From assembly GCA_027005735.1 (NCBI GenBank), contig JALTLF010000218.1, positions 22,935 to 86,934 of the forward strand: a stretch of 64,000 bases of DNA. Reading direction: 5' to 3'. A program made the translations under genes and the position numbers. Below are positions 25,627 to 60,227 of this stretch, one piece after another (positions within the stretch are counted from its first letter, which is position 1; every line of letters begins with the position of its first letter). Source of the stretch: Chromatiales bacterium (GTDB lineage Bacteria > Pseudomonadota > Gammaproteobacteria > CAMYNG01). The notes beneath the pieces are model-generated. The model worked only from the letters and a program-made list of their open reading frames with translations. It searched no databases and was not told the DNA's origin.

Positions 25627-26298
25627 TTAGTCGTCGCCGCTCAGCGCGCCCAGCAGGTTCAACAGATGAATGAAGATGTTGAAGATGTCGAGATACAGGG
25701 CCACCGTGGCCATGATGTAGTTGGTCTCCCCGCCATTGATGATGCGGCTGGTGTCATACAGGATGAAACCGCTGAAGAGCAGGATGACGGCGGCGGAAAT
25801 GGCCAGCGAGAGGGCCGGGATGGCAAAGAAGATATTGCCCAGCGCGGCAAAGAGGATCACCAGCAGCCCCACGAACAGCATGCCACCAAGGAAGCTGAAG
25901 TCGCGCCTGGTGGTCAGGGCATAGCCCGACAGGCCCAGGAAGATCACCCCGGTGCCGCCCAGGGCGGTCATGATCAGCTGGGCGCCATTGGACAGGGCCA
26001 GGTACTGAGTGAGGATGGGGCCCAGCGAGAAGCCCAGCAGGCCGGTAATGGCAAACACCACCCCGATGCCGGCGCTGGAATTGGCGGTGCGCGGTAGCAC
26101 CAGCCAGATGAGCAGGAAGGCACCACCGACAGACAGCAGGTAGGTTCCCGGTCCGGTTTCCACGTACATGGAGACGGCGGCCATCAGGGCGCTGAACAGC
26201 AGTGTCATGGACAGCAGGCTGTAGGTGTTGCGCAGCACCTTGTTGGTGGCCAGCACCGATTCGGCGCTACGGCTGACGGCCGGTTGGTTAAATGCCAT
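25627..26298 (-). CDS. Bax-inhibitor-1/YccA family (TMBIM) membrane protein
   Basis: Seven predicted TM helices; the family signature C-terminus (ATVALYLDIFNIFIHLLNLLG) is present. Start at MAFNQP inside ORF 25627..26349. As in E. coli, it sits next to a tRNA-Ser gene (yccA-serT). Confidence 0.8.
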   Translation of the reverse strand: MAFNQPAVSRSAESVLATNKVLRNTYSLLSMTLLFSALMAAVSMYVETGPGTYLLSVGGAFLLIWLVLPRTANSSAGIGVVFAITGLLGFSLGPILTQYLALSNGAQLIMTALGGTGVIFLGLSGYALTTRRDFSFLGGMLFVGLLVILFAALGNIFFAIPALSLAISAAVILLFSGFILYDTSRIINGGETNYIMATVALYLDIFNIFIHLLNLLGALSGDD

Positions 26299-26621
26299 GG
26301 TTGGTATCCTCCTGATTCTCTGGATATAAATTACTAATTGCCTGGACACAGCATACCGGAACAGTTCCCGATATCAAGTAACAACATGGGGTCGGACGCC
26401 GCAAATTCAAACTGGCCAGCCCGCCCCCTTTTTGGGTATGCTTCGCCCCATTGTGCGTCGCCGGGCGAGCGGGGGCAAGGGCCGGACGTTTCGAAAAATC
26501 CGTAGCCGCCTCTCGGAAAAAACTGAAAAAAATCAGTCTGTTACCTTTTCTATATACGCCGCACGCGGGGGTATCGCTGGGATACTGCATACACCGGGCC
26601 GGGGCGGCGACGCGACAATCT

Positions 26622-26709
26622 GGAGAGCTGGCTGAGTGGTCGAAAGCGGCGGTCTTGAAAACCGTTGACCGGCGACGGTCCGGGGGTTCGAATCCCTCGC
26701 TCTCCGCCA
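26622..26709 (+). tRNA. serT: tRNA-Ser (anticodon UGA), type II tRNA with long variable arm, CCA encoded
   Basis: GGAGAGCTGGCTGAGTGGTCGAAAGCGGCGGTCTTGAAAACCGTTGACCGGCGACGGTCCGGGGGTTCGAATCCCTCGCTCTCCGCCA. Acceptor stem GGAGAGC/GCTCTCC, anticodon loop CU-UGA-AA, long variable arm, T-loop GGTTCGAATCC. Closely parallels E. coli serT. Confidence 0.9.
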
Positions 26710-26714
26710 CACAC

Positions 26715-26746
26715 GAAAGGCCCCTTCGGGGGCCTTTCGTGTTTGT
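26715..26746 (+). terminator. Rho-independent terminator after tRNA-Ser
   Basis: GAAAGGCCCC-TTCG-GGGGCCTTTC followed by GTGTTTGTGG. Confidence 0.7.
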
Positions 26747-27142
26747 GGAAAGGGGTCGATGACTCGCTGGACAGCGGATCTTCCCGAAGATAGTTGAACC
26801 CACTGCCCTCTCGGGTTTCGCACAAAGATAATCGGCCTGCAACCCCAGGCTGGGACTCAGGCGTTAGCAAGTCCGACGCCGGGGTGGTGCCGACTGGTGT
26901 TCGATATGCTCAAGAAATACGCACAGCGGGCCGAAACTTCATGCTGTCGGCACCGCAACAGGGCGCATTACAAGAGGATGCGGTCAAAATCTGACCATAT
27001 TACGGCCCATGCAGGCCTGCCGTGGAAAGGGTGTAGCACACCCCGATTGGCAGTTTGCGGTCTTTTGTGGGAGATTATGGCGTGCGTGCCCCGGGCAGGA
27101 AACCGGGTATGACGAGAAGAACAAGCCGGAGAAGAGCAGGCG

Positions 27143-27538
27143 ATGTCGCGGATCAAGATCTACAGGCTCGGTCGCAACAGCAGTAATGATTATGTCATCA
27201 ACGACGACACGGTCTCGCGTTCACACGCGGAATACATCGTCTGTGATGATGGCCGCCTGTACGTAACCGATTGTCACAGTACCAGTGGCACCTTCGTTTT
27301 CCGCGGTGAGACCTGGCAGAAGATCCGCCAGGACTTCGTGGCCCCCGATGAGAAGCTGCGCTTCGGCGAGGCCGAGGTGAGCCCCGTGGAACTGGCATCT
27401 CGCGCAAAGGCCAGTGGACCCACGGCGGCAACCGTGGCCCCGCAGGCCGGCGAGAGTGAAAAGCTTTCCGAAGCACCGGAGGCGGGCACCGGTTTCGTGC
27501 GCAATCCCGAAACGGGCGAAATCATTTCCAAACAATAA
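27143..27538 (+). CDS. FHA-domain protein (small, N-terminal FHA, disordered C-tail)
   Basis: YRLGRNSSNDYVINDDTVSRSHAEYIVCDDGRLYVTDCHSTSGTFV has the FHA hallmarks (GR, SRxH, S-x-NGT-like TSGTFV). Confidence 0.8.
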   Translation: MSRIKIYRLGRNSSNDYVINDDTVSRSHAEYIVCDDGRLYVTDCHSTSGTFVFRGETWQKIRQDFVAPDEKLRFGEAEVSPVELASRAKASGPTAATVAPQAGESEKLSEAPEAGTGFVRNPETGEIISKQ

Positions 27539-27558
27539 CACGAGACAATAATCAGGAA

Positions 27559-28314
27559 ATGGGAAATCGCACCACCGTATTACTGGTCAGCTCGGGTGCC
27601 GGCCTTGTTTTCATTCTGCTGCTCAGCCTGGTCCTCGACAGCGGTTTCTTTGCCGATTTTCTCCTCGATCGAAACACGAGCTGGGCGCCGTACCCGTTCA
27701 CCATCCAGAATGTCATGTGGCTGGTATTCTTCTTTGGCCTGGGCGAACTGTATCTTCGCCACGAGAGCGGCAGCGATGACCTGCGGCAGATTTCGCTGGG
27801 TCTCCTGCCCGAGGACGAAACCAGTCTCCTGCGCCCGAAAGACCTGCCGGCACTCTACCGCAAGGTACGCCAGTCCGATCCGGACAGGCGGCATTTTTTA
27901 CAACGCATGTTGACGCGCTGTATCCTGCAGTTTCAGAGCAGTAATTCCGTGGACCAGGCAAATACCCTGTTCAATTCCAGCCTCGAGCTGTACCAGCACG
28001 AGGTGGAGCTGCGCTATAACATGTTGCGCTATATCGTCTGGCTCATCCCGACCCTGGGGTTCATCGGCACGGTTGTGGGGATCGCGCTCGCCCTCAGTGA
28101 TGCCGGCGCGGCAAAGGATTTCCAGGATCCGGAACTGCTCAAGGTCCTGACCAGGAGCCTGGGCGTGGCGTTTTATACTACCTTGCTGGCGCTGATGATG
28201 TCGGCGGTGCTGGTATTTCTCATGCACGTGATCGAAGGCCGGGAAGAACGCGTGTTGAATACGGTTGGTCAATATACGCTCGATAACCTGATCAACCGGC
28301 TCTATGAAAAATAA
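27559..28314 (+). CDS. MotA/TolQ/ExbB-like proton-channel family membrane protein (orphan, no ExbD/TolR/MotB partner)
   Basis: Topology is an N-terminal TM pair, a cytoplasmic loop, then two C-terminal TMs. WLIPTLGFIGTVVGIALAL matches the conserved LGLLGTVxG channel helix of ExbB/TolQ, followed by a second amphipathic TM (LGVAFYTTLLALMMSAVLVFL). Confidence 0.55.
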   Translation: MGNRTTVLLVSSGAGLVFILLLSLVLDSGFFADFLLDRNTSWAPYPFTIQNVMWLVFFFGLGELYLRHESGSDDLRQISLGLLPEDETSLLRPKDLPALYRKVRQSDPDRRHFLQRMLTRCILQFQSSNSVDQANTLFNSSLELYQHEVELRYNMLRYIVWLIPTLGFIGTVVGIALALSDAGAAKDFQDPELLKVLTRSLGVAFYTTLLALMMSAVLVFLMHVIEGREERVLNTVGQYTLDNLINRLYEK

Positions 28315-28409
28315 ATGATCCCCCGGAATCGGTGGCAGGGAACCGACCGCAGCTCGATGCCGCGCCACCGCAGGGCTTGAACCACCAAAGCAGAACAGGC
28401 AGGTAAACC

Positions 28410-29003
28410 ATGAGTGACTCTGACTACGATTCACCTACCCGCAAGGTAGGATCTCCGACACGGCGCAATACGGTCAAATCGGGTGACGCGGGCGCCACCC
28501 GTCCGGCAGGAAGAGGTGGCGCCGCTGATAGCGGTGAGACAAAGACCCAGATCTATCGGCCGGGGCGTCGGCGGGATGCCGATGCCGACACCCAGTCCAA
28601 CCCCACCGGCAGTAGCGCGCGTCGCGCCGCCGCCTCCGCCATGGACGATCCCCCCGCGGGCTGGCTGGTGGTCATCAGGGGACCGGGGATGGGCAGTGTC
28701 GTGACCATCGGCATAGGCAGCAATTCCATCGGCCGGGATGCCAGCGAACGCATCAGCCTGGACTTCGGCGATGAGACCATTTCCCGTGAAGGCCATGCCA
28801 TCGTAACCTACGATCCGCGTGGCAAGAAGTTCTATATCCAGCATGGGGGCGGCAAGAACCTGACCTATCTCAACAACGAACCCGTGCTGGCCCCCGCCGA
28901 ACTGGAAGCGGGTGCGGAGATCGTCATCGGGGAGACTGCGCTGCGCTTCATGCCGCTGTGTGGGCCCGACTTCAACTGGGAAGATCTCGAGACGGATCGG
29001 TAA
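28410..29003 (+). CDS. FHA-domain protein (disordered Arg/Ser/Thr-rich N-terminus, C-terminal FHA)
   Basis: WLVVIRGPGMGSVVTIGIGSNSIGRDASERISLDFGDETISREGHAIVTYD...GGKNLTYLNNEPV is an FHA core. Confidence 0.8.
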   Translation: MSDSDYDSPTRKVGSPTRRNTVKSGDAGATRPAGRGGAADSGETKTQIYRPGRRRDADADTQSNPTGSSARRAAASAMDDPPAGWLVVIRGPGMGSVVTIGIGSNSIGRDASERISLDFGDETISREGHAIVTYDPRGKKFYIQHGGGKNLTYLNNEPVLAPAELEAGAEIVIGETALRFMPLCGPDFNWEDLETDR

Positions 29004-29025
29004 GGACAGCAAAGAAAGCGAGCGC

Positions 29026-29769
29026 ATGTTTCAGGTTAAAGGCGATCAAATCATCGGCGCCCGGACGCGCCAGGAAGACAGTTTTCGCATTGAACAACTG
29101 GATACCACGGCACAGCACCTCATGGTCATCACTGACGGCATGGGTGGTCATGCAGGTGGCGCGCAGGCAAGCCGCATCGTGGCAGACAGCTTCGTCGATG
29201 CATGGCTTGGTGGAGAAGGTACAACGGTGGATCGCCTGCACGATGCGCTGTTTTACGCCAACGACCAGGTGGCCCGGGCGATAGAAGACGATCCGGAGCT
29301 GGTCGACATGGGAACGACCCTGCTGGCCTGTGTGCTGGATGGCAGTGAGTTGTCCTGGGTCAGCGTGGGTGATTCCATACTGTGGGTTTACCGTGACGGT
29401 AAGCTGCTGCGCATCAACGACGATCACTCCATGGCCCCGGTAATCGATGGCCTGGTGGAAATCGGTCGCATGACACCCGAAGAGGCCGCCAGTGACCCCA
29501 GGCGGAACCAGTTGCGTTCAGTAGTGACGGGTGAGGACATACCGCTCATCGATATCAGCAAGACGCCTCTCGTGCTGGAGGACGCTGATATCCTGCTGCT
29601 CGCCACGGACGGCATCCTCACATTGGGTGAGGACGAAATTATTTCCGTGCTGCGGGATAGCCGCCCAGCGGGACCCGAGGCATGCGCCGGAGCGATTTTC
29701 GCCGCCATTGAATCACATGCGGAGCCACAGCAGGACAATACGACCCTGATAGTTGCTTCGCAAGACTGA
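29026..29769 (+). CDS. PP2C-family Ser/Thr protein phosphatase
   Basis: RQEDSF...VITDGMGGHAGG, LLATDGI and the C-terminal DNTTLIV are metal-binding motifs of bacterial PP2C (Stp/PppA-like). Start at the internal ATG of ORF 28912..29769. Confidence 0.85.
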   Translation: MFQVKGDQIIGARTRQEDSFRIEQLDTTAQHLMVITDGMGGHAGGAQASRIVADSFVDAWLGGEGTTVDRLHDALFYANDQVARAIEDDPELVDMGTTLLACVLDGSELSWVSVGDSILWVYRDGKLLRINDDHSMAPVIDGLVEIGRMTPEEAASDPRRNQLRSVVTGEDIPLIDISKTPLVLEDADILLLATDGILTLGEDEIISVLRDSRPAGPEACAGAIFAAIESHAEPQQDNTTLIVASQD

Positions 29770-29814
29770 ACTACGAGCTCCGGCCGACGCCGGTGAGTCA
29801 ACGCAGGAAAAAGA

Positions 29815-31299
29815 ATGAAAACATCCATCCTGAAGAAGATCCTTGTTTCGACCCTGATCATCCTCTCGTGCCTTGTGCCGATATCGTTCGCCGCCGCGGA
29901 TGCCATTCTCGACCAGACAGGAAAGGCCCTGGTCCGGATCCATGTTCTGCATGGCGGCAAGGTAGAGAGTGAGCAGATCGGTTTCATCATCAACAATGAA
30001 ACGGGTCATGTGGCAACCTACTCAGGCAGCCTGGGCAAGGACAGCACGGTCAGCATTACCACCGCCAGCAACCATGAACTCAAGGCAGAGGTCGTCTTGC
30101 TGCGCCCCGAGGAGGGCGTGGCCATCTTGCGCACCAATCTCGCCGGGATGGATGTGGACTCCGTCCTGTTTGCAAAGGATCCCCTCGAAGATGGACGTAC
30201 GGTGGCAACAGCGGTTCTTTCCGGTAGTGCGCCGGACACGGAGATCGGTATACGCCGCGGCAGTGTCGGGCAAATGGTGCCGGCGGTGGGCACTGGCAAG
30301 CCGGTGCTCATTCAGCACAACGCGCTGGCAAATACCCGCAGCTTTGGCGCGCCGCTGTTCAACAACTGTGGTGAAGTTGGCGGCCTGCTGATACCGGAAA
30401 AACGCGCGCTGACGGCCATTTTCGGCGTGCCCGATGCACAGGAAGAGGGCGTTGCCTACGCGATAAGTGGCGAATGGTTGAAGAATCTCCTGCTGGCGAA
30501 CGATATTCCGTATTACACCGCGGAAGAGACCTGTGCCAGCGAGATCGAGCAGGTCGCCCAGGCCGAGGGGGATGTGGAGCGGGCCGAGGAAGAGATCCGC
30601 GCCGCCAACGAACGCCTGGACGAACTGCGGCGCCAGCTCGAAGAGGCCGGACAGGCCAGCGCCGAGGAGCGGGCGCGCCTGCAGGACGAAATAAAGAAGG
30701 CCGAAGCCTCGGTACAGGCGCTGAAGAAGAAGCAGAAAGAGCTCGAGGCGCAGGCGGCGGAGCTGGCCGAGCGGGCCGAGGCCGTGCGCAAACGCGAGCG
30801 GCAGGTGACCATCGCCGCCGCCGTCGTTGTTGCCATCCTGTTACTGCTGGTTTTACTCGCATGGCGGCGCAAGCGCCGTGCCCTGCGGGAGAAACAGGCG
30901 GCGGAGCGGGCACGCCGGGAAACGGAAGGGGAGCTGGAAAAGAAACTGGCAGAAGAGGCCATGTTGAAGGAGATCCCCGACGTGCTGCTCGAAGCGGAGT
31001 CACCGGACGGGGAGAAATTTGCAGTCAAGATCCCGGGGCCCAATCTTGGCGGCGCGGAAGGGGCGACAGTAGGTCGCAATCCCGAGATGAGTAATTTCGT
31101 CATCAATCATCCCGATGTGTCCCGCACGCATTTCCGCCTGCTGTCAGTACGCAAGCAACTTCTGATCGAAGACCTGGGATCGACCAATGGTACCAGCATC
31201 AACGGCATCCTGCTTGGTGAAGGCGAACTGGAAGCGGTCATGAATGGCACCGTTATCAGGATCGGGGACCTGCGCATCAAGGTGACGATAAAACAATGA
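29815..31299 (+). CDS. Signal peptide / degenerate trypsin-like (S1) domain / periplasmic coiled coil / TM helix / cytoplasmic FHA domain
   Basis: Cleavable N-terminal signal peptide and an S1-like fold. Compared with the downstream paralogue the catalytic positions are altered (EGVAILRT in place of IDVALLRT; RSFGAPLF in place of GNSGGPLF). Heptad-rich EIEQVAQAEGDVERAEEEIRAANERLDELRRQLEEAG..., TM IAAAVVVAILLLLVLLAW, C-terminal FHA (ATVGRNPEMSNFVINHPDVSRTHFRLL...GSTNGTSINGILL). Confidence 0.75.
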   Translation: MKTSILKKILVSTLIILSCLVPISFAAADAILDQTGKALVRIHVLHGGKVESEQIGFIINNETGHVATYSGSLGKDSTVSITTASNHELKAEVVLLRPEEGVAILRTNLAGMDVDSVLFAKDPLEDGRTVATAVLSGSAPDTEIGIRRGSVGQMVPAVGTGKPVLIQHNALANTRSFGAPLFNNCGEVGGLLIPEKRALTAIFGVPDAQEEGVAYAISGEWLKNLLLANDIPYYTAEETCASEIEQVAQAEGDVERAEEEIRAANERLDELRRQLEEAGQASAEERARLQDEIKKAEASVQALKKKQKELEAQAAELAERAEAVRKRERQVTIAAAVVVAILLLLVLLAWRRKRRALREKQAAERARRETEGELEKKLAEEAMLKEIPDVLLEAESPDGEKFAVKIPGPNLGGAEGATVGRNPEMSNFVINHPDVSRTHFRLLSVRKQLLIEDLGSTNGTSINGILLGEGELEAVMNGTVIRIGDLRIKVTIKQ

Positions 31300-31318
31300 A
31301 TCACAGTGGAACTGGATA

Positions 31319-32638
31319 ATGTCTGAGAAACTCATGCGGCGCTCCCTGCTTCTCGGGGCTTGTCTCCTGTGTCTGCTGCTGGTGCCAGCGAGTGTGCTTG
31401 CGCGGCAGTTCGACGTGGTCAAGCTTGAGAAGAGCGTGGTTCGTGTCATCACCAACAACGGGACCGGCACCGGTTTTGTCATCAACAAGGATGGCTATGT
31501 TCTCACCAATCACCACGTCATCGAAGGCGCCTCACGTTTTGTCGTGATGTCAAGTTACCTGGCACAACCGGTCGAGGCCGAGGTGGTGTTTTTCGATCGC
31601 CAGATCGACGTCGCGCTTCTTCGTACCCGCGGTCTCAATCTGCCGCCGGTAACACTGACCACCGTGACACCGGAAAAGAGCGACCAGGTTTTCGCGTTCG
31701 GTTTCCCCGGTCTCGCCGACTACGGCTCCTGGGAAGAGATTGAAGGCATTGCCCTGGATGTCACCATTACCGATGGCGTCCTGAGCCGCATTTTTGATCA
31801 GCCCTGGGCGGGAAATTCCACGGTGATCACCATTCTCCAGCACAACGCCCAGATCAATCCGGGCAACAGCGGTGGCCCGCTGTTCGATCTATGCGGGCGC
31901 GTGATCGGTATCAATACCCAGCAGGGTGTCGGCGGCCAGGGGATTTTCTGGGCCTCGCACATCAAGGAGGCAATGGGCCTGCTGAAGCAGAAGAACATCC
32001 GTTTCAAGGTCACCAGCAAGCCCTGCAAGGAAGTGACGCCGGCCGCGCCACCTCCGCCGCCGGCACCGGCGCCGAAGGTGATTGTGCCTCCGCAGTCGCG
32101 TTACACCCCCTGGCTGGTGGCGCTTTCCATTCTCGTTGCCACCGCGGCACTGTTGCTGGCGCTCAGAAAGCCGCGCGAGCGCATCGTGGAAGTGACCAAG
32201 CGCTACGCGAGTGGTATCACGCGGCGCATTACCGGGGCAAGGAAAGACACGCAAAGCGAGGGGGGCGCCACTGTCAGGGCAGGTGCAGGCGGGAAGAGCC
32301 AGGGGAAAAAGGCTGGCAGGACGGGCTTGTTGCTTTCCGGGTTTACCAGCGGGGGCAAGCCAATACGCGTCGAGATCACCGATCAGCAACTCGCCGGTCT
32401 GGGGTTCAGTCTGGGGCGTCATCCCAACCTGGTGGACTTCGTTATCGCCGACGACTCCCTGTCACGGCGTCATTTGCGCATCAGCGGGGGACATGGGCGC
32501 TACTACGTGGAAGACCTCAACTCCAGCAACGGGGTATTGATCAACGGCAAGCCGGCGAAACCCTTCGCCAGGGTCGAGATTGTGCCGGGTGACAGGCTGA
32601 CGCTGGGAGACGTGGAAATCGATGTGTCCCGGATTTAA
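31319..32638 (+). CDS. Signal peptide / HtrA- or trypsin-like serine protease (intact triad) / TM helix / cytoplasmic FHA domain
   Basis: Catalytic His (GTGFVINKDGYVLTNHHVIEGA), Asp (IDVALLRT) and Ser (INPGNSGGPLFD) are all present. Pro-rich linker, TM WLVALSILVATAALLLAL, C-terminal FHA (FSLGRHPNLVDFVIADDSLSRRHLRI...SSNGVLINGKP). Confidence 0.8.
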   Translation: MSEKLMRRSLLLGACLLCLLLVPASVLARQFDVVKLEKSVVRVITNNGTGTGFVINKDGYVLTNHHVIEGASRFVVMSSYLAQPVEAEVVFFDRQIDVALLRTRGLNLPPVTLTTVTPEKSDQVFAFGFPGLADYGSWEEIEGIALDVTITDGVLSRIFDQPWAGNSTVITILQHNAQINPGNSGGPLFDLCGRVIGINTQQGVGGQGIFWASHIKEAMGLLKQKNIRFKVTSKPCKEVTPAAPPPPPAPAPKVIVPPQSRYTPWLVALSILVATAALLLALRKPRERIVEVTKRYASGITRRITGARKDTQSEGGATVRAGAGGKSQGKKAGRTGLLLSGFTSGGKPIRVEITDQQLAGLGFSLGRHPNLVDFVIADDSLSRRHLRISGGHGRYYVEDLNSSNGVLINGKPAKPFARVEIVPGDRLTLGDVEIDVSRI

Positions 32639-32689
32639 GCGCCTGGCACGGCGTTTGCCGGTGTCCGTCTCCGTGTCAGGACGCCAGCC

Positions 32690-33511
32690 GTGAGACGCCG
32701 CAACCGGGAGATCAATATCTTCAACGTTTCGGCGCTGGACCTGTTTGCCTCGGCGCTGGGGGCCTTCATACTCATCACGGTGGTCCTGTTCCCCTACTTT
32801 CCAAATACGGGAGACTCGCCGGAGCGGGTGGCGACCTGCAAGCAGGCCCTGCAGGAATGCCGCAAGGAAAAACAGCGTCTCGAACGGGAACTGGCCAGGG
32901 CACAATTCCCCCATCTCGACCTTGTCATTGCCCTGGATGTCACCGGCAGCATGAAAGAACAGATCGACGGTCTGAAGTCGGAACTACAGCAACTGACCAT
33001 GGTGCTGGGAAAACTGGCCCCTTCCCTCGGTATTGGCGTGGTTGCCTTTGGCGACCGAAAATGGGAACAACCCATCTTCACCTATCGTCTCAGGGAGGTT
33101 GGCGGCTCCCCTGCCAATTTCCGGGATCTGCAGCGATTCATCGATGGCCTGGCACCCAACATGGGCCTGGGTTCGGGGGATAACGATGATTACCCCGAAG
33201 CCGTTGCGCGCGCGTTAGATGAAGCCATAGCGATGCCGTGGCGGGCGCAGGCAAAGAAACGGATCATTGTCGTCATCACCGACAATCCGGCCTACCCGGA
33301 AAGGATTAGCTATTCTTTACGAAGGGCAGAGGAATTTGCGCGTACACCGGGACAACAGGTGTCCACCGTTCTGGTGATTTCGCAAAATGATCCCGAAATC
33401 TATGGGCCGGCACGGGAATTTTTGGCTAAACTGGCCCGTAAGGGGAAAGGAGAAGCCGTCAAGGCCGGCGGCTCCATGACTGCGGCACTGCTGTTGGCAT
33501 TGCTGGGATAA
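32690..33511 (+). CDS. Membrane-anchored periplasmic von Willebrand factor A (vWA) domain protein
   Basis: Basic N-terminus, TM LFASALGAFILITVVLFPYF, then LVIALDVTGSM (MIDAS DxSxS-type motif) and a Rossmann-like vWA fold (IGVVAFGD..., IIVVITDNPA). Confidence 0.75.
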   Translation: MRRRNREINIFNVSALDLFASALGAFILITVVLFPYFPNTGDSPERVATCKQALQECRKEKQRLERELARAQFPHLDLVIALDVTGSMKEQIDGLKSELQQLTMVLGKLAPSLGIGVVAFGDRKWEQPIFTYRLREVGGSPANFRDLQRFIDGLAPNMGLGSGDNDDYPEAVARALDEAIAMPWRAQAKKRIIVVITDNPAYPERISYSLRRAEEFARTPGQQVSTVLVISQNDPEIYGPAREFLAKLARKGKGEAVKAGGSMTAALLLALLG

Positions 33512-33553
33512 TTTGACTACCGAGGCACATCAAACCAGAAGCAGGAAATAACG

Positions 33554-34528
33554 ATGAATGATAACCATACGACAGTGAGAGAGAAAGGCGTATCGGGCTG
33601 GCTCATTACGGCCATACTTGGTCTGATGTTTGGTTCAACGGCGGCCTATGCGGATCAACCGTCCGATACGGCGACCTTCGATGCGGAATTCCAGGTCGCT
33701 CTGGAAGAGCAACCCGATCCTGCCCGTCTGCAGGCCATGCTACGGCTTGCCGAGGCAAAGAGCAGCAGCGGTGGAGGCGGCGGCAGCGCGCCCGTGGCGA
33801 GCGGGGGAAATGTCTGGTTCGCCATCTTTCGCACTACCGACAACCGACAGCGCTGGGTACGCAACACTTCGCTCCAGGAGTTCACGAATTCCATTCGCAA
33901 GGCCTGGAGGGACGGCTATCATCTCAAGCGTGTCAACTACGCCGATGGGCGCTGGGTGGGCATCTTCGTCGACACCAAGGTGGGTTGTGCCGAACGTAAC
34001 GGTTTTGAAACCGCTGGTTCACGCGAGGCTTTCCTCAAGGCCGTAAAGCAACGTTGGGTCGATGGTTATACCCTGGTAGATGCGGCCTATGGCGAAGGCA
34101 CCTGGTTTGGTAACTTCTGTGAGGATCCCCGTGACAATACCTATGTCACGGCGAGTGACTGGGATGCCCTGAGCAACCTGATCAGCAAGAAATGGGACCA
34201 GGACAGCCAGTGGCACGTGCTCTCAGCAGACCGTGGTCCCGACGGCTGGTTGGCGGTATTCGTCAAGGGGGAGTGCCCGGGACGCAATGGCTGGAGCATC
34301 TATGATTCCCAGGCCGCCCTGGAAGAAGCACTGCGCGACAGCAACAACGACGGTTTCGCGGTTCGCAACATGGCCTACACCAATGGAAACTGGATTGCGA
34401 TGCGTTGCGAAGAGGATGTCAGCAACATCTATGAAACTGCCGCCAGCTGGCCGCAGTTGAAGGAAAAAATCAAGCAGCGCTGGGGTCAGGGCCTAGACCT
34501 GATCGCCATCGACTACGGTCGGCGCTAG
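33554..34528 (+). CDS. Secreted protein made of five tandem copies of an uncharacterised ~55-aa W/G/aromatic repeat; paralogue of the kinase ectodomain
   Basis: Signal peptide (ITAILGLMFGSTAAYA). Repeats: NVWFAIFRTTDNRQRWVRNTSLQEFTNSIRKAWRDGYHLKRVNY..., ERNGFETAGSREAFLKAVKQRWVDGYTLVDAAYGEGTWFGNF, NTYVTASDWDALSNLISKKWDQDSQWHVLSA..., RNGWSIYDSQAALEEALRDSNNDGFAVRNMAYTNGNWIAM, SNIYETAASWPQLKEKIKQRWGQGLDLIAIDYG. About 60-70% identical to residues ~485-725 of the kinase. Confidence 0.7.
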   Translation: MNDNHTTVREKGVSGWLITAILGLMFGSTAAYADQPSDTATFDAEFQVALEEQPDPARLQAMLRLAEAKSSSGGGGGSAPVASGGNVWFAIFRTTDNRQRWVRNTSLQEFTNSIRKAWRDGYHLKRVNYADGRWVGIFVDTKVGCAERNGFETAGSREAFLKAVKQRWVDGYTLVDAAYGEGTWFGNFCEDPRDNTYVTASDWDALSNLISKKWDQDSQWHVLSADRGPDGWLAVFVKGECPGRNGWSIYDSQAALEEALRDSNNDGFAVRNMAYTNGNWIAMRCEEDVSNIYETAASWPQLKEKIKQRWGQGLDLIAIDYGRR

Positions 34529-34839
34529 CTCGCATATCCACACTTGGGGGCGGTCCCGGTCTCCGGGACCGCGCCCTGCCAGCGTGGAACCTTCCACGGC
34601 AGGCCCGGCAGGACGCCGCCACGGGAATACCGTCGTGCCCCCGTGTCGGTGGGGGCCGAAGGGCGCGCGCCTGGCCCGAGTCATTGAAATTGCGGGGATT
34701 TTCAGGTTAGATAAGCCACGTGGCGAGGATGTTGTCGGTAACGGCGAGCTTCCACGCCCGGCGCCATGCTCACATGGCCACTGGATCTACCCCCGGGATC
34801 CCGCTGGTCGCGGTACATTAAAATCATAATGAAGTCGCC

Positions 34840-37017
34840 ATGAACGAACATCACCATTCCCTGCCGGAGGGCTACCAGCTTTTCGAATATCGCATCGATG
34901 GTATTCTGGGCACCGGTGGCTTCGGGATCACCTACCTTGGGTGGGACAGCAATCTCGACAAGCAGGTGGCCATCAAGGAGTACCTGCCCGGTGAATACGC
35001 CGTGCGTCTCGAAGGCGAGACCGTGGCGCCCCGGTCCACCGAGGACGAAGACGACTATGCCTGGGGGCTGGAGCGTTTTCTCGACGAGGCCCGTGCCCTG
35101 GCCCGCTTCGATCATCCCAATATCAACCGCGTACTGCGTTTTTTCGAAGCCAACAACACGGCCTACCTGGTGCTGGAGTACGTCGAGGGCAGGACGCTGG
35201 CCAAGGTTCTCAAGTCCGGCTACAGCTTCAGCGAAGCCGAGATCACCGAAATGCTGGGCGCCATGCTGTCCGGCCTGGCGGTGGTGCACCGTGCCGGCTA
35301 TGTTCACCGCGACATCAAGCCGGCCAATATCATGTTGCGCCCGGACGGCCAGCCGGTATTGCTGGATTTCGGCGCTGCCCGCCAGGCCATCGGCCGCAAG
35401 ACACAGAGCATTACCACGGTCCTCACCCCCGGCTATGCGCCCATCGAGCAGTATGACCAGCATGCCGAGGACATCGGCCCGTGGACCGATATTTACGCAC
35501 TCGGCATGGTCTTCTACCGCTGCGTCACCGGGATCTCGGACGGTGAACTGGTCGATGCCGTGGCGCGCGCGCGCATGCAGCGCAAGGGAGAAGATCCCCT
35601 CGCGCCGGCGGTGATCGCCGCGCAGGGCAAGTACAGTCCGAAGTTGCTCGAAGCCATCGACTGGGCAGTGGCGGTCAACGAGGAGGATCGTCCCCAGAAC
35701 GTCTCCGAACTCACCTCGATTCTGCCGGCCTTCGAAAACCGCACCCAGGTCTCGGGACGCGGTGATACCCAGGCCCCCACGCAGGCCGCCGGCCAGGCCC
35801 CGGGCGGGCGGCATCCGGCGGATCAGAAGACCCGGGCGGTCGCGCCGGTGGGCATGACCAGTGGTGCCCGCTGGGCACTTGGCGTGACGCTGGCGCTGGT
35901 TCTCATCGGCATTGCCCTGGGTGCGGCGTGGGTCTTCTGGGCCGGCCCGCCCGATGGAGGGGAGTCCGGCGGCCCGCTTGCCGGTGGGCCCGCGCCCGGT
36001 CCGCAGGCCACGGATCCCACGCCCGCGGTGGCCTCGCCCGTGGAAGTCGCGCCGGCCTACCTGGTGGTGCGCAGCAATGTCTCCGGCGATCACGTCATCG
36101 TCGATGGTCGGGATCTCGGGCACAGCGGGACGCGCCGTCACGAACTGGCACCGGGTGAACATGAAATACGGGTGGAGAAAAAGGGTTACATCCCCTGGAA
36201 GCGGACGCTGACGCTGGAGAGTGGCAAGACCCTCACGGTCAGGGCGCGCCTGCGTCCCCTCGCCGGGGTGCCACCGGTGGCCGGCGGGGGCCGCAGGGGC
36301 CACTGGTTTGCCGTGTTCAGGTCGACGGACAACCGCCAGCGCTGGGTACGCAACAGTTCACTCCAGGAGTTCACGGCTTCCATCCAGAAGGGCTGGGAAG
36401 ACAACTACCACCTGAGCCGCGTGATCTACAGCCGTAATACCTGGGTCGGGGTTTTCGTTGACCCGGCGGTGGGCTGCGCCAATCGAAACGGCTACGAGGT
36501 GGCGAGTACGCGCAGCGAGTTCATTAATCGTATCAAGGAGCGCTGGAAGGATGGTTTCACGCTCGTGGACATGGCCTACGGCGAGGGCGTGTGGTTTGGA
36601 AACTTCTGTGAGGACGCGCGTGGCAATACCTATGCCACGGCATCCACCTGGGATGCGCTGGCGAAAAAGATCAGCCAGAAATGGAACAAGGACAGCGATT
36701 GGCATGTCATCTCGGTGGAGCGAGGCAGGGGCGGCTGGATGGCGGTCTTCGTCAAGGGGCTGTGCCCGGGGCGCAACGGCTGGAACCGTGTCGGCTCCAG
36801 CGCGGAGCTGGAAAGGGAACTCCGGCAGGGTAGCCGCGAGGGGTTTTCGGTACGCAATATCCGCTACACCGACGGCGCCTGGTATGCCCTGCGTTGCGAG
36901 GACGGGATGCACAACATCTATGAAACCGCCAGCAGTTGGGAGGAAATGAAGAAAAAGATCAGTACGCGCTGGAGCCAGAAACTGGATCTCGTGGCGCTGG
37001 ATTACGGCCCCAACTGA
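34840..37017 (+). CDS. Hanks-type Ser/Thr protein kinase / TM / periplasmic PEGA domain / five-repeat ectodomain
   Basis: GTGGFGITYLG...VAIKE (P-loop and VAIK Lys), HRDIKPANIML, DFGAA, TPGYAPIEQ. TM WALGVTLALVLIGIALGAAWVFW. PEGA-like YLVVRSNVSGDHVIVDGRDLGHSGTRRHELAPGEHEIRVEKKGYIPWKRTLTL. Five repeats HWFAVFRSTDNRQRWVRNSSLQEF... to ...LDLVALDYGPN. Confidence 0.85.
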   Translation: MNEHHHSLPEGYQLFEYRIDGILGTGGFGITYLGWDSNLDKQVAIKEYLPGEYAVRLEGETVAPRSTEDEDDYAWGLERFLDEARALARFDHPNINRVLRFFEANNTAYLVLEYVEGRTLAKVLKSGYSFSEAEITEMLGAMLSGLAVVHRAGYVHRDIKPANIMLRPDGQPVLLDFGAARQAIGRKTQSITTVLTPGYAPIEQYDQHAEDIGPWTDIYALGMVFYRCVTGISDGELVDAVARARMQRKGEDPLAPAVIAAQGKYSPKLLEAIDWAVAVNEEDRPQNVSELTSILPAFENRTQVSGRGDTQAPTQAAGQAPGGRHPADQKTRAVAPVGMTSGARWALGVTLALVLIGIALGAAWVFWAGPPDGGESGGPLAGGPAPGPQATDPTPAVASPVEVAPAYLVVRSNVSGDHVIVDGRDLGHSGTRRHELAPGEHEIRVEKKGYIPWKRTLTLESGKTLTVRARLRPLAGVPPVAGGGRRGHWFAVFRSTDNRQRWVRNSSLQEFTASIQKGWEDNYHLSRVIYSRNTWVGVFVDPAVGCANRNGYEVASTRSEFINRIKERWKDGFTLVDMAYGEGVWFGNFCEDARGNTYATASTWDALAKKISQKWNKDSDWHVISVERGRGGWMAVFVKGLCPGRNGWNRVGSSAELERELRQGSREGFSVRNIRYTDGAWYALRCEDGMHNIYETASSWEEMKKKISTRWSQKLDLVALDYGPN

Positions 37018-37311
37018 CGCGCGCACGCGGATCTTGCCGCAGCACATGCACAATTGTGGTGCGTGGAGATGGGGCCAGGCGGCCGGGCGGGCACGTTTCG
37101 CCTGTGCCTGTATCAGGACTGGGGTTTCGCGTATGGTTTGCGCTAGAATTACCCGGCCGACCGCCCATGCCGGTTTCCCCGGGAAGGGCGTAGGATAGCC
37201 GGGGCCCGCACAGTGCCAGCGGGCGGGGCAGCTGGAACACCAACCCCAATATAGACTTATGATGGTTTTTCCCGATCGCCCCCGTGGGCGTCAATGCTGG
37301 AGGAAGTCACC

Positions 37312-37959
37312 ATGATCAGGGTCCTGCTGGTGGATGACCACGATCTGGTGCGTACCGGGATCCGGCGCCTGCTGGAGGACGTCAACGATATCGAGATCGT
37401 CGGCGAGGCGGCCAGTGGCGAGGAGGCGGTCAACCAGGCACGGACGCAGATGCCCGACGTGGTGTTGATGGATCTCTCCATGCCGGGCATGGGGGGGATC
37501 GAGGCGACGCGCAAGCTGCTGCAACACCATCCCGATATCCGCGTCATCGTGGTGACCATGCACGACGACGAACTCTATCCCCAGCGGCTGCTCAAGGCCG
37601 GCGCGCGCGGCTATCTCACCAAGGGGGCCAGCGCCACCGAGATCGTGCGTGCCATCCGCGAGGTCATGGCCAACCGCCGTTACCTGAGTCCCGACGTCGC
37701 CCAGCAGATCGCCCTGTCCACCTCCACCGATGGCGTCGCCTCACCCTTTGCCAACCTCTCCGAACGCGAGCTGCAGGTCATGATGATGCTCATGGAAGGC
37801 TGCAAGATCGGCGACATCTCCGAGCGCCTGTGCCTGAGTCCCAAGACCGTCAGCACCTACCGCTACCGGCTGTATGACAAGCTCGGCGTGAACAACGACA
37901 TGGAACTGGCGCGGCTGGCCATCCTGCACGGCGTGGTGGAGGGCAACGGCCCGCACTGA
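37312..37959 (+). CDS. uvrY: NarL/FixJ-family response regulator UvrY/GacA/SirA orthologue
   Basis: MIRVLLVDDHDLVRTGIRRLLEDVNDIEIVGEAASGEEAV...VVLMDLSMPGMGGIEATRKL and a LuxR HTH (ERELQVMMMLMEGCKIGDISERLCLSPKTVSTYRYRLYDKLG) are colinear with E. coli UvrY. Confidence 0.85.
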   Translation: MIRVLLVDDHDLVRTGIRRLLEDVNDIEIVGEAASGEEAVNQARTQMPDVVLMDLSMPGMGGIEATRKLLQHHPDIRVIVVTMHDDELYPQRLLKAGARGYLTKGASATEIVRAIREVMANRRYLSPDVAQQIALSTSTDGVASPFANLSERELQVMMMLMEGCKIGDISERLCLSPKTVSTYRYRLYDKLGVNNDMELARLAILHGVVEGNGPH

Positions 37960-45002: not shown

Positions 45003-46460
45003 ATGGATTTTTTACCCATATTCATTGATATCCGCCACAAGCCGGTGCTGGTGGCGGGTGGCGGCAAGGTGGCGGCGCGCAAGGTGCGCCTGCTGCGCAA
45101 GGCCGGCGGCGAGGTCACCGTGGTGGCGCCGGAACTGTGCGAGGAACTGGCGGAACAGCGCGCGGCGGGCCACATCCGCCATGTGGCGCGCAAGTTCGAG
45201 GCCGCCGATCTGGATACGCCGGTGCTCATCATCGCCGCCACCGATGACCGCGAGGTCAACCGGGCGATCTCCGAGGGCGCTCGTGCCGCGCGCGTGCCGG
45301 TCAACGTGGTGGACGATCCGGAACTGTGCGGGTTTATCATGCCCTCCATCATCGATCGATCGCCGGTACAGATCGCCATCTCCACCGGCGGTTCCTCGCC
45401 GGTACTGGCGCGCCTGCTGCGCTCCAAGCTGGAGAGTTGTACCCCCGCCACCTACGGCAAGCTGGCCACCCTGGTGAATGACTACCGCGACCGGGTCAAG
45501 GAACGTTTTGCCGACGAGTCACAGCGCAAGCAGTTCTGGGAACAGATCCTCGAGGGTGAGGTGGCGGAACTGGTGTTCGCCGGCAAGGAGAAGGCCGCCC
45601 GCGAGGCGCTGTCGGCCGCCATCGCGTCCGCCGATCCCAGCGGCATGCCGAAGGGCGAGGTCTACCTGGTGGGTTCCGGTCCCGGCGATCCCGATCTTCT
45701 TACCTTCCGCGCCCTGCGCCTGATGCAGCAGGCCGACGTGGTGATCTATGATCGCCTGGTCTCGAAGCAGATCCTCGAGCTGGTGCGGCGCGACGCGGAA
45801 CTGGTCTATGCCGGCAAGGAACGGGACAACCACACCCTGCCACAGGAGCATATCAACCAGCTACTGGTGAAATATGCCCGCAAGGGTTATCGCGTATTGC
45901 GCCTCAAGGGCGGAGATCCCTTCATCTTCGGTCGCGGGGGCGAGGAGATCGCTACCCTCATGGAGGAGGGGATCGGCTTCCAGGTGGTGCCGGGGATCAC
46001 CGCCGCCGCCGGCTGCGCCTCCTATGCGGGGATCCCGCTGACCCACCGTGATCACGCGCAGAGTTGCGTCTTCGTCACCGGCAATCTCAAGGACGGTTCG
46101 CTGGATCTCAACTGGCAGGCGCTGGCCCATCCCAACCAGACCATCGTCTTCTACATGGGCCTGCATGGCGTACAGACCATTTGCACAAAACTCGTGGAAC
46201 ACGGGCTGGCCGCCGATACGCCGGCGGCGCTGGTGCAACAGGGGACGACGCCCAACCAGCGGGTGTTCACCGGCACGCTGGCAAGCCTGCCCGAGCTGGT
46301 GGAAAGCAACGACGTCAGGCCACCGACGCTGATCATCGTCGGTTCGGTGGTTTCACTGCAGGACAAGCTCGCGTGGTTCGAGCCGGTGACCACGGAGACC
46401 GAACAGAAGGACATCTTCAGTAGCAATCCCGGCCGTGACGGGAAAAGCGAAAAGAGGTAG
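45003..46460 (+). CDS. cysG: Siroheme synthase CysG (precorrin-2 dehydrogenase/ferrochelatase fused to uroporphyrinogen-III C-methyltransferase)
   Basis: N-terminal Rossmann VLVAGGGKVAARK plus the SUMT domain (GEVYLVGSGPGDPDLLTFRALRLMQQADVVIYDRLV, VRLKGGDPFIFGRGGEE). Confidence 0.9.
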   Translation: MDFLPIFIDIRHKPVLVAGGGKVAARKVRLLRKAGGEVTVVAPELCEELAEQRAAGHIRHVARKFEAADLDTPVLIIAATDDREVNRAISEGARAARVPVNVVDDPELCGFIMPSIIDRSPVQIAISTGGSSPVLARLLRSKLESCTPATYGKLATLVNDYRDRVKERFADESQRKQFWEQILEGEVAELVFAGKEKAAREALSAAIASADPSGMPKGEVYLVGSGPGDPDLLTFRALRLMQQADVVIYDRLVSKQILELVRRDAELVYAGKERDNHTLPQEHINQLLVKYARKGYRVLRLKGGDPFIFGRGGEEIATLMEEGIGFQVVPGITAAAGCASYAGIPLTHRDHAQSCVFVTGNLKDGSLDLNWQALAHPNQTIVFYMGLHGVQTICTKLVEHGLAADTPAALVQQGTTPNQRVFTGTLASLPELVESNDVRPPTLIIVGSVVSLQDKLAWFEPVTTETEQKDIFSSNPGRDGKSEKR

Positions 46461-52878: not shown

Positions 52879-52935
52879 ATTCCAGCACCCTTGCCAGGGT
52901 CGACCTCACTGACCCGATCACCGTGGTGGCGGCGA

Positions 52936-54168: not shown

Positions 54169-54174
54169 AACCTG

Positions 54175-55415: not shown

Positions 55416-55432
55416 TGGGCTTCCCCGTTGGC

Positions 55433-57373: not shown

Positions 57374-57454
57374 GTCTGTATCTCCTGTGAATTATCCGGA
57401 CCGTGTCCGATTAACAACTAAAACTCAAAATTGGATGAATTGCGTATCCAGTTA

Positions 57455-58978: not shown

Positions 58979-59030
58979 GATATTTTCCTCGATCCTGTTC
59001 TGCGCGCTATGGCAGTTTCGTTATGCTTTT

Positions 59031-59786: not shown

Positions 59787-59862
59787 CCTAGTAAAATCCT
59801 CTGTTTTTATACTTCGATTAGGAAAGAGGGGGTTGAAAACCCCCTCTCGTCGTTCCTAAGCG

Positions 59863-60195: not shown

Positions 60196-60227
60196 TGTTT
60201 AGATCTCCTCGTTAGCAGATTGAATCG

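What the first reader, a model, noticed from the sequence alone, without database searches (positions are those of the whole stretch)
33790..37017. Uncharacterised ~55-aa repeat module (5 copies) duplicated between a secreted protein and the kinase ectodomain
ORF 33554..34528 (after its signal peptide) and residues ~485-725 of the kinase are about 60-70% identical at protein level, with conserved nucleotide stretches such as GACAACCG(C/A)CAGCGCTGGGTACGCAACA. Each consists of five repeats with conserved W, G, F/Y and N/D positions (e.g. WFAIFRTTDNRQRWVRNTSLQEFT; GEGTWFGNFCED). I cannot match the repeat to a named family. It may be a WG/β-propeller-like ligand-binding unit. A soluble copy of a receptor's sensor domain encoded next to the receptor suggests a decoy, co-receptor or ligand-shuttling role. 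The ~730-bp diverged direct repeat could also mediate recombination.
Basis: seen in the sequence. Interest (0 to 1): 0.7.

Follow-up and report, generated by a model that had tools for sequence, protein, structure and literature searches.

The report
Kinase sensor domain with secreted twin
A membrane Ser/Thr kinase of an uncultured sulfur-oxidising gammaproteobacterium uses as its outside sensor a five-repeat barrel domain of a known but functionally unexplained family (DUF7477, the polyglycine-hydrolase N-domain fold), and the gene just upstream encodes a free, exported copy of that same domain.

Summary
ORF 33554-34528 (residues 87-324) and kinase 34840-37017 (residues 488-725) share 63% identity over 248 aa (E 5e-116). 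Each holds five 46-50-aa repeats.

Both copies occur in all four related lineages found. The duplication predates their split, and both copies are under purifying selection (dN/dS 0.06-0.23). DNA identity is 68% and the longest identical run is 19 nt, so recombination between the copies is unlikely.

The genes close a ~10-kb operon: FHA, MotA/ExbB-like, FHA, PP2C, two periplasmic trypsin-like/FHA proteins, TM-vWA, free copy, kinase.

A free paralogue of the kinase sensor is rare in this operon family. I found one other case, built on an unrelated FGE-sulfatase fold.

The most likely role of the free copy is a periplasmic partner or modulator of the kinase sensor. This is inferred, not shown.

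The parts
33554..34528 (+). Gene for the exported free copy (324 aa). It has a signal peptide, a linker and a five-repeat DUF7477-like domain.
   Evidence: ORF. AGGAA lies 7 nt before the ATG. Orthologues P0001-P0003 are 69-89% identical. No Pfam or NCBIfam hit reaches threshold.
33554..33652 (+). Predicted Sec signal peptide (residues 1-33, cleavage AYA|DQ).
   Evidence: Read from the sequence. An A-x-A-type site is kept in the orthologues. No predictor was run.
33653..33811 (+). Linker (residues 34-86): an acidic stretch, the conserved segment DPARLQAMLRLAEAK, then a Gly-rich stretch SSSGGGGGS.
   Evidence: Sequence. It has no similarity to the kinase.
33812..34525 (+). Five-repeat domain of the free copy (residues 87-324). 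Repeats lie at 33812-33949, 33950-34099, 34100-34243, 34244-34387 and 34388-34525.
34537..34588 (+). Strong hairpin directly after the stop codon of the free copy.
   Evidence: dG -37.9 kcal/mol, z -4.5. Hairpins with different sequences sit at the same place in L001, L004 and L006 (z -5.1 to -5.8). The consensus terminator scan did not flag it because there is no T-run.
34683..34712 (+). Invariant intergenic motif ATTGAAA-N15-GGTTAGAT, promoter-like (-35-like TTGAAA), about 130 nt before the kinase ATG.
   Evidence: It is the only well-conserved block in the 269-312-nt spacer of all four lineages. It is unique in the window, with 0 matches expected by chance. Function was not tested.
34840..37017 (+). 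Hanks-type Ser/Thr kinase gene (725 aa). Catalytic domain about residues 17-300, TM 347-365, PEGA 408-473, five-repeat domain 488-725.
   Evidence: Pkinase E 8.8e-37 and PEGA E 1.9e-14. VAIK, HRD and DFG motifs are present in the sequence. TM helix.
36301..37014 (+). Five-repeat domain of the kinase (residues 488-725). Repeats lie at 36301-36438, 36439-36588, 36589-36732, 36733-36876 and 36877-37014.
27143..33511 (+). Upstream genes of the same operon: FHA (27143-27538), MotA/ExbB-like (27559-28314), FHA (28410-29003), PP2C (29026-29769), pseudoprotease-TM-FHA (29815-31299), trypsin-like protease-TM-FHA (31319-32638), TM-vWA (32690-33511).
   Evidence: Pfam hits. TM helices. Catalytic triad present in the second protease and lost in the first. 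Same order in L001, L004 and L006. The same backbone with other kinase ectodomains occurs in L095, L098 and L099.

Best explanation
SHOWN. The repeat module is a roughly 238-aa domain of five strand-strand-helix-strand units. It belongs, as a divergent member, to the DUF7477 / polyglycine-hydrolase N-domain superfamily. One copy is the C-terminal extracytoplasmic module of a catalytically intact Hanks-type Ser/Thr kinase (kinase, TM helix, PEGA, domain). A paralogous copy is made as a separate protein with a signal peptide from the gene immediately upstream. The pair arose once, before the four known lineages diverged, and both copies are kept by purifying selection. The genes close an operon that also encodes four FHA domains, a PP2C phosphatase, two membrane-spanning periplasmic trypsin-like proteins (one active, one without a catalytic triad), a TM-vWA protein and a MotA/ExbB-like channel.

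INFERRED. The tethered copy is the kinase's ligand- or partner-binding sensor. The free copy works in the periplasm as a partner or modulator of that sensor. It would bind the same ligand through the face formed by the conserved strand1-strand2 loops, or bind the sensor itself. Either way it would set how readily the kinase is activated, much as the operon-encoded periplasmic proteins RtkS and TagR control PpkA. Kinase autophosphorylation would then recruit the FHA proteins, including the FHA tails of the two protease-like proteins, and PP2C would reset the system.
For: Identity of the domain:
- AF2 models of both copies.
- Foldseek probability 1.0.
- hhalign 99.6%, E 7.8e-24, all five repeats in register.
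- 70 of 122 profile-search hits match DUF7477 (best E 1.9e-69) and 3 match BTRD1, the 'polyglycine hydrolase-like structural repeat'.

Use as a kinase sensor:
- 12 of the best 149 family members are kinase-TM-domain proteins.
- The kinase scaffold kinase-TM-PEGA-X carries interchangeable X modules in its closest relatives: FGE-sulfatase, PG_binding_1, SoxYZ, beta-helix, Sel1.

Both copies are functional and old:
- dN/dS is 0.08-0.17 for the free copy and 0.06-0.23 for the tethered copy.
- Paralogue dS is at least 1.2.
- There are 8 fixed paralogue-specific differences against 1 lineage-specific one.
- Both copies are present in every locus that has either.

Shared binding face: strands and strand1-strand2 loops are the most conserved elements across all 8 sequences (48-68% invariant), against 28% for the helices.

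Second, independent case: in L095/L179 a kinase with FGE-sulfatase sensor modules is followed by a secreted protein with three FGE-sulfatase modules that are 61-76% identical to them.

Against: - There is no direct evidence that the two copies, or either copy and a ligand, interact. No multimer prediction was available and model coordinates are not returned.
- Other kinases with a DUF7477 ectodomain have no free copy nearby. This holds for L010, L093 and L094; a fourth locus, L092, is too short to tell.
- In the operon family defined by the TM-vWA signature, 55 kinase ectodomain clusters were found, of which 36 have at least 2.5 kb of flank on both sides. Only the window lineage and one FGE-sulfatase case have a free paralogue. 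A free copy is therefore not generally required.
- A hairpin and a conserved promoter-like motif separate the free copy from the kinase, so the two may be expressed independently.
- The free copy evolves about half as fast as the tethered one. This could mean different constraints and different partners.
- The ligand of the whole family is unknown (PMC9912923).
Confidence: 0.4

Rival explanations
1. Protease-linked role. The domain is a target-recognition or docking module for periplasmic proteases. The free copy would bring substrates to the two membrane-anchored trypsin-like proteins of the operon, or be their regulated substrate. The tethered copy would dock them at the kinase. This can coexist with the main explanation.
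For: - The only solved member is the N-domain of a secreted protease. Its proposed, untested role there is substrate positioning or exosite binding (PMC9912923).
- Family members are repeatedly fused to peptidases: Trypsin_2 in 6 of 122, S8 in 3, caspase in 2 and leishmanolysin in 2. Confirmed architectures include P0058, P0097 and P0068 (trypsin/HtrA-like), P0054, P0011 and P0015.
- Every version of the operon that was inspected, apart from the shorter L097, encodes one active and one inactive periplasmic trypsin-like domain.
Against: - The operon backbone with both protease-like genes exists with kinase ectodomains of entirely different folds and no DUF7477 domain. The proteases therefore do not need this domain.
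- Most family members have no peptidase domain.
- No interaction was tested.
Confidence: 0.25
2. Independent functions. The free copy is an ordinary stand-alone periplasmic DUF7477 protein with its own job. The kinase acquired a copy of the neighbouring gene's domain as a new sensor module. The two now act separately, at most recognising related ligands.
For: - Signal-peptide-bearing proteins of about 260-290 aa made of the five repeats alone are frequent among the family hits.
- The kinase family swaps its C-terminal module freely. Only the 2 orthologues among its 119 closest relatives carry this domain.
- The two copies evolve at different rates, and a hairpin and promoter-like motif lie between the genes.
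Against: - Both copies are retained together in all four lineages across dS above 1, and never one without the other.
- The loop face is conserved between the paralogues.
- An independent second case of the same arrangement exists with another fold.
Confidence: 0.2
3. Neutral leftover or recombination substrate. The duplication is a recent accident, and its main consequence is deletion or conversion between the 0.7-kb direct repeats.
For: The two copies are direct repeats only 1.8 kb apart and share some conserved nucleotide stretches.
Against: - DNA identity is 68% and the longest identical run is 19 nt. From general knowledge of E. coli, RecA-dependent exchange needs roughly 23-27 identical bp; this was not tested here.
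- dS between the copies is 1.2 to saturation.
- dN/dS is well below 1 in both copies.
- Orthologous grouping is intact, with 8 fixed paralogue-specific sites.
- The arrangement is unchanged in four lineages.
Confidence: 0.03

Closest known systems
N-domain of fungal polyglycine hydrolases (Fvan-cmp, PDB 7TPU); Pfam BTRD1 PF17660 and DUF7477 PF24289
   Different: Sequence identity to 7TPU is only 8-12%. Direct Pfam scores for the window proteins are below the gathering cut-off (17.3 and 14.3 against 27 bits). The window repeats are clearly similar to each other in sequence and carry four conserved Cys, whereas the fungal repeats are described as structural only. Here the domain is attached to a kinase, or stands free, rather than attached to a beta-lactamase-fold protease.
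Other bacterial Ser/Thr kinases with a DUF7477 ectodomain (for example P0025, P0061, P0065, P0091)
   Same: They share the kinase, single TM helix, C-terminal five-repeat domain architecture. P0025 scores 73.8 bits and P0065 scores 103 bits on DUF7477.
   Different: Their kinase domains are not the closest relatives of the window kinase. They have no PEGA domain. No free copy lies next to them, and they lack the operon backbone with FHA, proteases and vWA.
PpkA with its periplasmic regulators RtkS (Serratia) and TagR (Pseudomonas) in the type VI threonine-phosphorylation pathway
   Different: There are no type VI secretion genes in the window or in the syntenic loci. RtkS and TagR are not paralogues of the kinase's sensor domain. 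Here the interaction is only inferred.
Soluble decoy or co-receptor paralogues of eukaryotic receptor kinases (own knowledge; not examined here)
   Same: In both, a secreted protein carries the receptor's ligand-binding module without the kinase.
   Different: The eukaryotic cases usually arise by splicing, shedding or distant gene copies, and competition is demonstrated. Here the secreted protein is a separate adjacent bacterial gene, and its function is untested.

Membership tests
DUF7477 / polyglycine-hydrolase N-domain fold (Pfam PF24289, PF17660; PDB 7TPU) | Five tandem units of about 44-50 aa, each with three beta-strands and one alpha-helix | tested here: met
   DSSP on the AF2 models shows 5 x (E-E-H-E) in both copies. 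Unit lengths are 46-50 aa. The same unit in circular order is described as EHEE, 44 aa plus a 5-6-aa loop, in PMC9912923.
DUF7477 / polyglycine-hydrolase N-domain fold (Pfam PF24289, PF17660; PDB 7TPU) | Whole-domain fold superimposable on the 7TPU N-domain | tested here: met
DUF7477 / polyglycine-hydrolase N-domain fold (Pfam PF24289, PF17660; PDB 7TPU) | Score above Pfam's gathering cut-off for PF24289 (27 bits) | tested here: not met
   The free copy scores 17.3 bits (E 0.0028) and the kinase 14.3 bits (E 0.023). DUF7477 is the top non-kinase, non-PEGA hit for both.
DUF7477 / polyglycine-hydrolase N-domain fold (Pfam PF24289, PF17660; PDB 7TPU) | Demonstrable remote homology to bona fide members | tested here: met
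   hhalign of the window family against six DUF7477-positive domains gives probability 99.6%, E 7.8e-24 over 231 columns, with repeats in register. A profile of the window family finds 235 proteins at E <= 1e-3. Of the best 122, 70 match DUF7477 at E <= 0.001.
Hanks-type receptor Ser/Thr kinase | Catalytic motifs (VAIK Lys, HRD, DFG), a single TM helix and an extracytoplasmic C-terminal module | tested here: met
   Pkinase E 8.8e-37. VAIKEY, HRDIKPAN and DFGAAR are present in the sequence. One TM helix at 347-365.
Type VI secretion threonine-phosphorylation pathway (PpkA/PppA/Fha/TagR or RtkS) | Linkage to type VI core genes, and FHA protein of the TagH/Fha1 family | tested here: not met
   No type VI gene was found among the ORFs scanned across the window or in the syntenic loci. 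The VI_FHA model scores 41 and 33 bits against a cut-off of 120.
Known anti-phage defence systems (PADLOC) | Operon proteins match the models of a defined system | tested here: not met
   Only generic domain-level hits were found (kinase to PD-T4-6/mad6, MotA to ZorA at E 3e-6, protease to RT-Protease). There were no hits for the free copy or the vWA protein.
Decoy or co-receptor of a receptor kinase | Binding of the same ligand, or of the receptor ectodomain, with an effect on signalling | not testable with these tools
   The only evidence is indirect: retention of both copies, a conserved loop face and a second independent case.

The most novel reading that the evidence does not exclude
The operon encodes an undescribed trans-envelope signalling device. 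In this reading, the kinase's sensor domain and its secreted twin form a ligand-dependent hetero-complex in the periplasm. The resulting kinase autophosphorylation in the cytoplasm recruits the FHA tails of an active/inactive pair of membrane-spanning proteases. Phosphorylation inside would thereby switch proteolysis outside, with the free copy or its cargo as target, and the MotA/ExbB-like channel and the TM-vWA protein would be further parts. If true, this would also give the first functional assignment to the DUF7477 / polyglycine-hydrolase N-domain fold, which occurs in all kingdoms.
Probability: 0.1. Interest if true: 0.8.

Novelty: new member of a known kind. Interest (0 to 1): 0.4.

Why it matters
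The DUF7477 / polyglycine-hydrolase N-domain fold is found in bacteria, fungi, plants and algae, and no function has been shown for it. In this locus the domain is wired to a readable output, a Ser/Thr kinase with FHA and PP2C partners, and it comes with a free paralogue. That offers a tractable genetic and biochemical system for finding what the fold binds.

The locus also documents a rare arrangement, seen twice independently with unrelated folds, in which a bacterial receptor kinase keeps a secreted copy of its own sensor module next to it. If the free copy tunes the kinase, this would be a bacterial counterpart of soluble receptor paralogues in eukaryotes.

As it stands, the finding is a well-supported annotation of a divergent member of a known family, plus a hypothesis.

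Tried and rejected
- Word-indexed protein searches with either copy returned only the three orthologues of the free copy. The exhaustive profile search was needed to reach the wider family.
- A PDB sequence search with the family profile found nothing at E <= 10.
- A scan of 185,579 species genomes with the free copy found nothing. The best identity was 74-75%, to uncultured gammaproteobacterial MAGs.
- The afdb50 fold library was not available.
- A literature search for 'DUF7477' found no papers. A search for 'BTRD1 / PF17660' found one table entry. A search for the operon's gene combination found nothing specific.
- PADLOC gave no defined defence system.
- Gene conversion or concerted evolution was rejected. 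Paralogue dS is at least 1.2, there are 8 fixed paralogue-specific sites against 1 lineage-specific one, and synonymous divergence dips only mildly at codons 1-20 and 91-120.
- L096 appeared to show Sel1-repeat proteins next to Sel1 kinases. I rejected it because the overlapping ORFs on that contig look like frameshifted kinase genes.
- The 352-aa secreted protein after the beta-helix kinase in L099 shows no similarity to that kinase's ectodomain.
- The idea that a free sensor paralogue is a general rule of this operon family was tested on 80 metagenomic loci and rejected. Only two independent cases were found.
- Two fixed paralogue-specific swaps in repeat 4 (E/L at domain position 155 and I/R at 164) suggested a complementary heterodimer contact. 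I did not pursue this because model coordinates are not returned and the two positions lie at opposite ends of a strand.
Full report
**Observation**

The window has two adjacent plus-strand genes, 33554-34528 (324 aa) and 34840-37017 (725 aa). BLASTP aligns residues 77-322 of the first with residues 476-723 of the second at 63% identity (155/248, E 5e-116). A second alignment, offset by about 94 residues, has E 2e-17 and reveals internal repetition.

At DNA level the two domain-coding stretches are 68% identical.

Cutting the 238-aa domain at its recurring G-x-W motif gives five units of 46, 50, 48, 48 and 46 aa. Pairwise unit alignments reach z 7-10 against shuffles for pairs 1-2, 1-4, 2-4, 2-5 and 3-5.

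**Topology**

The first protein starts with a basic n-region, a hydrophobic stretch and an AYA|DQ site. The orthologues keep an equivalent site. No signal-peptide predictor was available, so this is read from the sequence.

The kinase has intact VAIK, HRD and DFG motifs (Pkinase E 8.8e-37), one TM helix (residues 347-365), a PEGA domain (408-473) and then the repeat domain (488-725). Both copies of the domain should therefore lie in the periplasm, one free and one tethered.

**What the domain is**

Direct Pfam and NCBIfam scans give nothing above threshold. In both proteins the best hit outside the kinase and PEGA regions is DUF7477 (PF24289), at 17.3 and 14.3 bits against a cut-off of 27.

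An AlphaFold2 model of the free domain (pLDDT 89.4, pTM 0.86) consists of five strand-strand-helix-strand units. An independent model of the kinase's periplasmic part (pLDDT 86.7) shows a PEGA beta-sandwich, a disordered linker and the same five units.

7TPU is the Fusarium vanettenii polyglycine hydrolase. Its authors describe the N-domain as a novel fold of five quasi-identical units of about 44 aa (three strands, one helix) forming a barrel-like structure. They report that the fold occurs in all kingdoms, mostly in bacteria, and has unknown function. They speculate about substrate positioning or protein-protein interaction (PMC9912923).

An exhaustive profile search of 1.84 billion representative proteins found 235 relatives at E <= 1e-3. 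Of the best 122, 70 match DUF7477 (best E 1.9e-69) and 3 match BTRD1, which Pfam now titles 'polyglycine hydrolase-like, structural repeat'. A profile-profile comparison between the window family and six DUF7477-positive domains gives probability 99.6% and E 7.8e-24 over 231 columns, with the five repeats in register.

The module is therefore a divergent member of a named family of unknown function. It is not a beta-propeller.

**Family architectures**

Twelve of the best 149 relatives are kinase-TM-domain proteins. Others fuse the domain to trypsin/HtrA-like, subtilase, caspase or leishmanolysin peptidases, or to TIR. Many are secreted proteins of about 260-290 aa made of the five repeats alone.

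**Conservation of the pair**

Only three close homologues of the free copy exist among 5.8 billion clustered proteins. Their contigs, from hydrothermal-vent and other metagenomes, carry the whole locus in the same order, and each also has a kinase with the repeat ectodomain.

- Free copies are 78-90% identical to one another.
- Tethered copies are 62-82% identical to one another.
- Free versus tethered copies are 58-67% identical.
- Kinase catalytic domains are 90-98% identical.

Eight positions are fixed differently between all free and all tethered copies. Only one position groups both paralogues of a lineage together. The duplication therefore predates the split of the lineages, and there is no concerted evolution.

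dN/dS is 0.08-0.17 for the free copy, 0.06-0.23 for the tethered copy and 0.02-0.05 for the catalytic domain. The tethered copy accumulates amino-acid changes about twice as fast as the free one. Paralogue dS is 1.2 to saturation.

Across all eight sequences the strands and the strand1-strand2 loops are the most conserved elements (48-68% invariant), against 28% for the helices. Four Cys, in repeats 2-5, are invariant.

With 68% DNA identity and no identical run above 19 nt, homologous recombination between the copies is unlikely. The arrangement is stable in all four lineages.

**Genomic setting**

The two genes close a roughly 10-kb operon (27143-37017):

| Coordinates | Product |
|---|---|
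| 27143-27538 | FHA |
| 27559-28314 | MotA/ExbB-like |
| 28410-29003 | FHA |
| 29026-29769 | PP2C |
| 29815-31299 | periplasmic trypsin-like domain without catalytic triad, TM, FHA |
| 31319-32638 | active trypsin-like protease, TM, FHA |
| 32690-33511 | TM-vWA |
| 33554-34528 | free copy |
| 34840-37017 | kinase |

The operon sits between a Bax1-I/YccA-like gene and uvrY. In Pseudomonas-type genomes these two genes lie 340-370 bp apart. The operon also has lower G+C than its flanks. Both points suggest an insertion.

The host is an uncultured gammaproteobacterium. Its best SerRS identity is 74-75%, to MAGs. The window also carries dsr-type sulfur-oxidation genes at 51-64 kb and no type VI secretion genes among the ORFs scanned.

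Between the free copy and the kinase lies an unusually long spacer of 311 nt (269-312 nt in the relatives). It holds a strong hairpin right after the stop codon in all four lineages, with different sequences in each (z -4.5 to -5.8). It also holds an invariant motif, ATTGAAA-N15-GGTTAGAT, at 34683-34712. The kinase may therefore have its own promoter.

**How general is a free twin of the sensor?**

The closest relatives of the kinase (55-66% identical catalytic domains) share the kinase-TM-PEGA scaffold but end in other modules: FGE-sulfatase, PG_binding_1, SoxY/Z, beta-helix or Sel1. Only the two orthologues among 119 relatives carry the repeat domain.

Loci L095, L098 and L099 have the same operon backbone with such other kinases. 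In L095 a kinase with two FGE-sulfatase modules is followed by a signal-peptide-bearing protein of three FGE-sulfatase modules that are 61-76% identical to them. This is a second, independent case built on an unrelated fold.

A systematic scan used the invariant TM signature of the vWA protein and returned 80 metagenomic loci. These, together with the related loci already fetched, held 55 distinct kinase ectodomain clusters, 36 of them with adequate flanks. A free paralogue was found only in the window lineage and in the L095/L179 case. Within this operon family the DUF7477-like domain occurs only in the window lineage, and always as both copies.

Kinases from other phyla with a DUF7477 ectodomain have no free copy nearby. 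The arrangement is thus rare and sporadic. Where it exists, it is retained.

**Mechanism**

Shown: the domain's family and fold, the topology, the age of the pair and the purifying selection on both copies, and the signalling context.

Inferred: the tethered copy is the kinase's sensor, and the free copy is a periplasmic partner that binds the same ligand or the sensor itself and so tunes activation.

I put this explanation at about 0.4.

- A protease-linked role (about 0.25, not exclusive) rests on the recurrent fusion of the domain to peptidases and on the two trypsin-like proteins in the operon.
- Independent functions after domain capture by the kinase is the third option (about 0.2).
- A neutral or recombinogenic duplication is essentially excluded.

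**Novelty and verdict**

The fold, the Pfam family and kinase fusions of the domain are already on record. What is new is a divergent subfamily with sequence-similar repeats and conserved cysteines, its place in an elaborate and apparently undescribed kinase / FHA / PP2C / protease / vWA operon, and the conserved pairing of tethered and free copies.

I classify it as a new member of a known kind and score interest at 0.4. The more novel reading couples phosphorylation inside to proteolysis outside through the sensor and its twin. The evidence does not exclude it, but nothing directly supports it (probability about 0.1).

Noticed in passing
window 34528-34840 (hairpin 34537-34588; motif 34683-34712): The spacer between the free copy and the kinase is unusually long, 311 nt here and 269-312 nt in three related lineages. 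It holds a strong hairpin after the stop codon, with a different sequence in each lineage, and an invariant motif ATTGAAA-N15-GGTTAGAT. This suggests a transcript end or attenuator followed by a separate kinase promoter or regulator site.
   Followed up: partly
window 29815-31299 and 31319-32638: Two paralogous proteins have a periplasmic trypsin-like domain, a TM helix and a cytoplasmic FHA domain. The second keeps the catalytic triad (TNHHV, DVALL, GNSGGP). The first has lost all three residues and carries a coiled-coil stretch. The same active/inactive pair is present in L006.
   Followed up: partly
window 25627-37959: The roughly 10-kb kinase operon lies between a Bax1-I/YccA-like gene and uvrY. 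In Pseudomonas and Stutzerimonas loci (L018, L021, L050) these two genes lie 340-370 bp apart. G+C drops to 0.58-0.60 in the operon, against 0.64-0.70 around it. This looks like an inserted island.
   Followed up: partly
L095 12188-17724 (same sequence in L179): A related operon has a kinase with two FGE-sulfatase sensor modules. It is followed by a secreted protein with three FGE-sulfatase modules that are 61-76% identical to them. This is an independent second example of a kinase keeping a free copy of its sensor module.
   Followed up: partly
L098 10001-12517: In a locus with the same operon backbone, the kinase ectodomain is PEGA plus SoxY/SoxZ-like modules. The sensor is thus related to the soluble periplasmic sulfur-carrier protein of sulfur oxidisers.
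   Followed up: no
window 32690-33511 and loci L095-L179: The N-terminal TM segment of the vWA protein (SALDLFASALGAFILI) is almost invariant across very divergent versions of the operon (28-97% overall identity). It served as a signature that retrieved 223 metagenomic relatives. In L095 the protein at this position keeps that TM segment, but its C-terminal part gave no Pfam hit and aligns poorly with the vWA domain.
   Followed up: partly
window 51466-63764: A cluster of dsr-type genes is present: NIR_SIR (DsrAB-like), NrfD-like, Fe-S proteins, a DsrL-like oxidoreductase and a CobB/CobQ-like amidase. Sirohaem synthase lies at 45003-46460. This indicates a sulfur-oxidising lifestyle, consistent with the hydrothermal-vent origin of one related contig.
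   Followed up: no
window 34702-36303 (minus strand): A 533-aa open reading frame runs antisense inside the kinase gene. It is most likely an artefact of high G+C content. It was not scanned against the protein-family libraries.
   Followed up: no
domain positions 59, 103, 155, 199 (window 33986-33988, 34118-34120, 34274-34276, 34406-34408 and the equivalent kinase codons): Four Cys are invariant in all eight sequences, one each in repeats 2-5. Their placement suggests two disulfides linking repeat 2 to 3 and repeat 4 to 5. This could not be checked because model coordinates are not returned.
   Followed up: no
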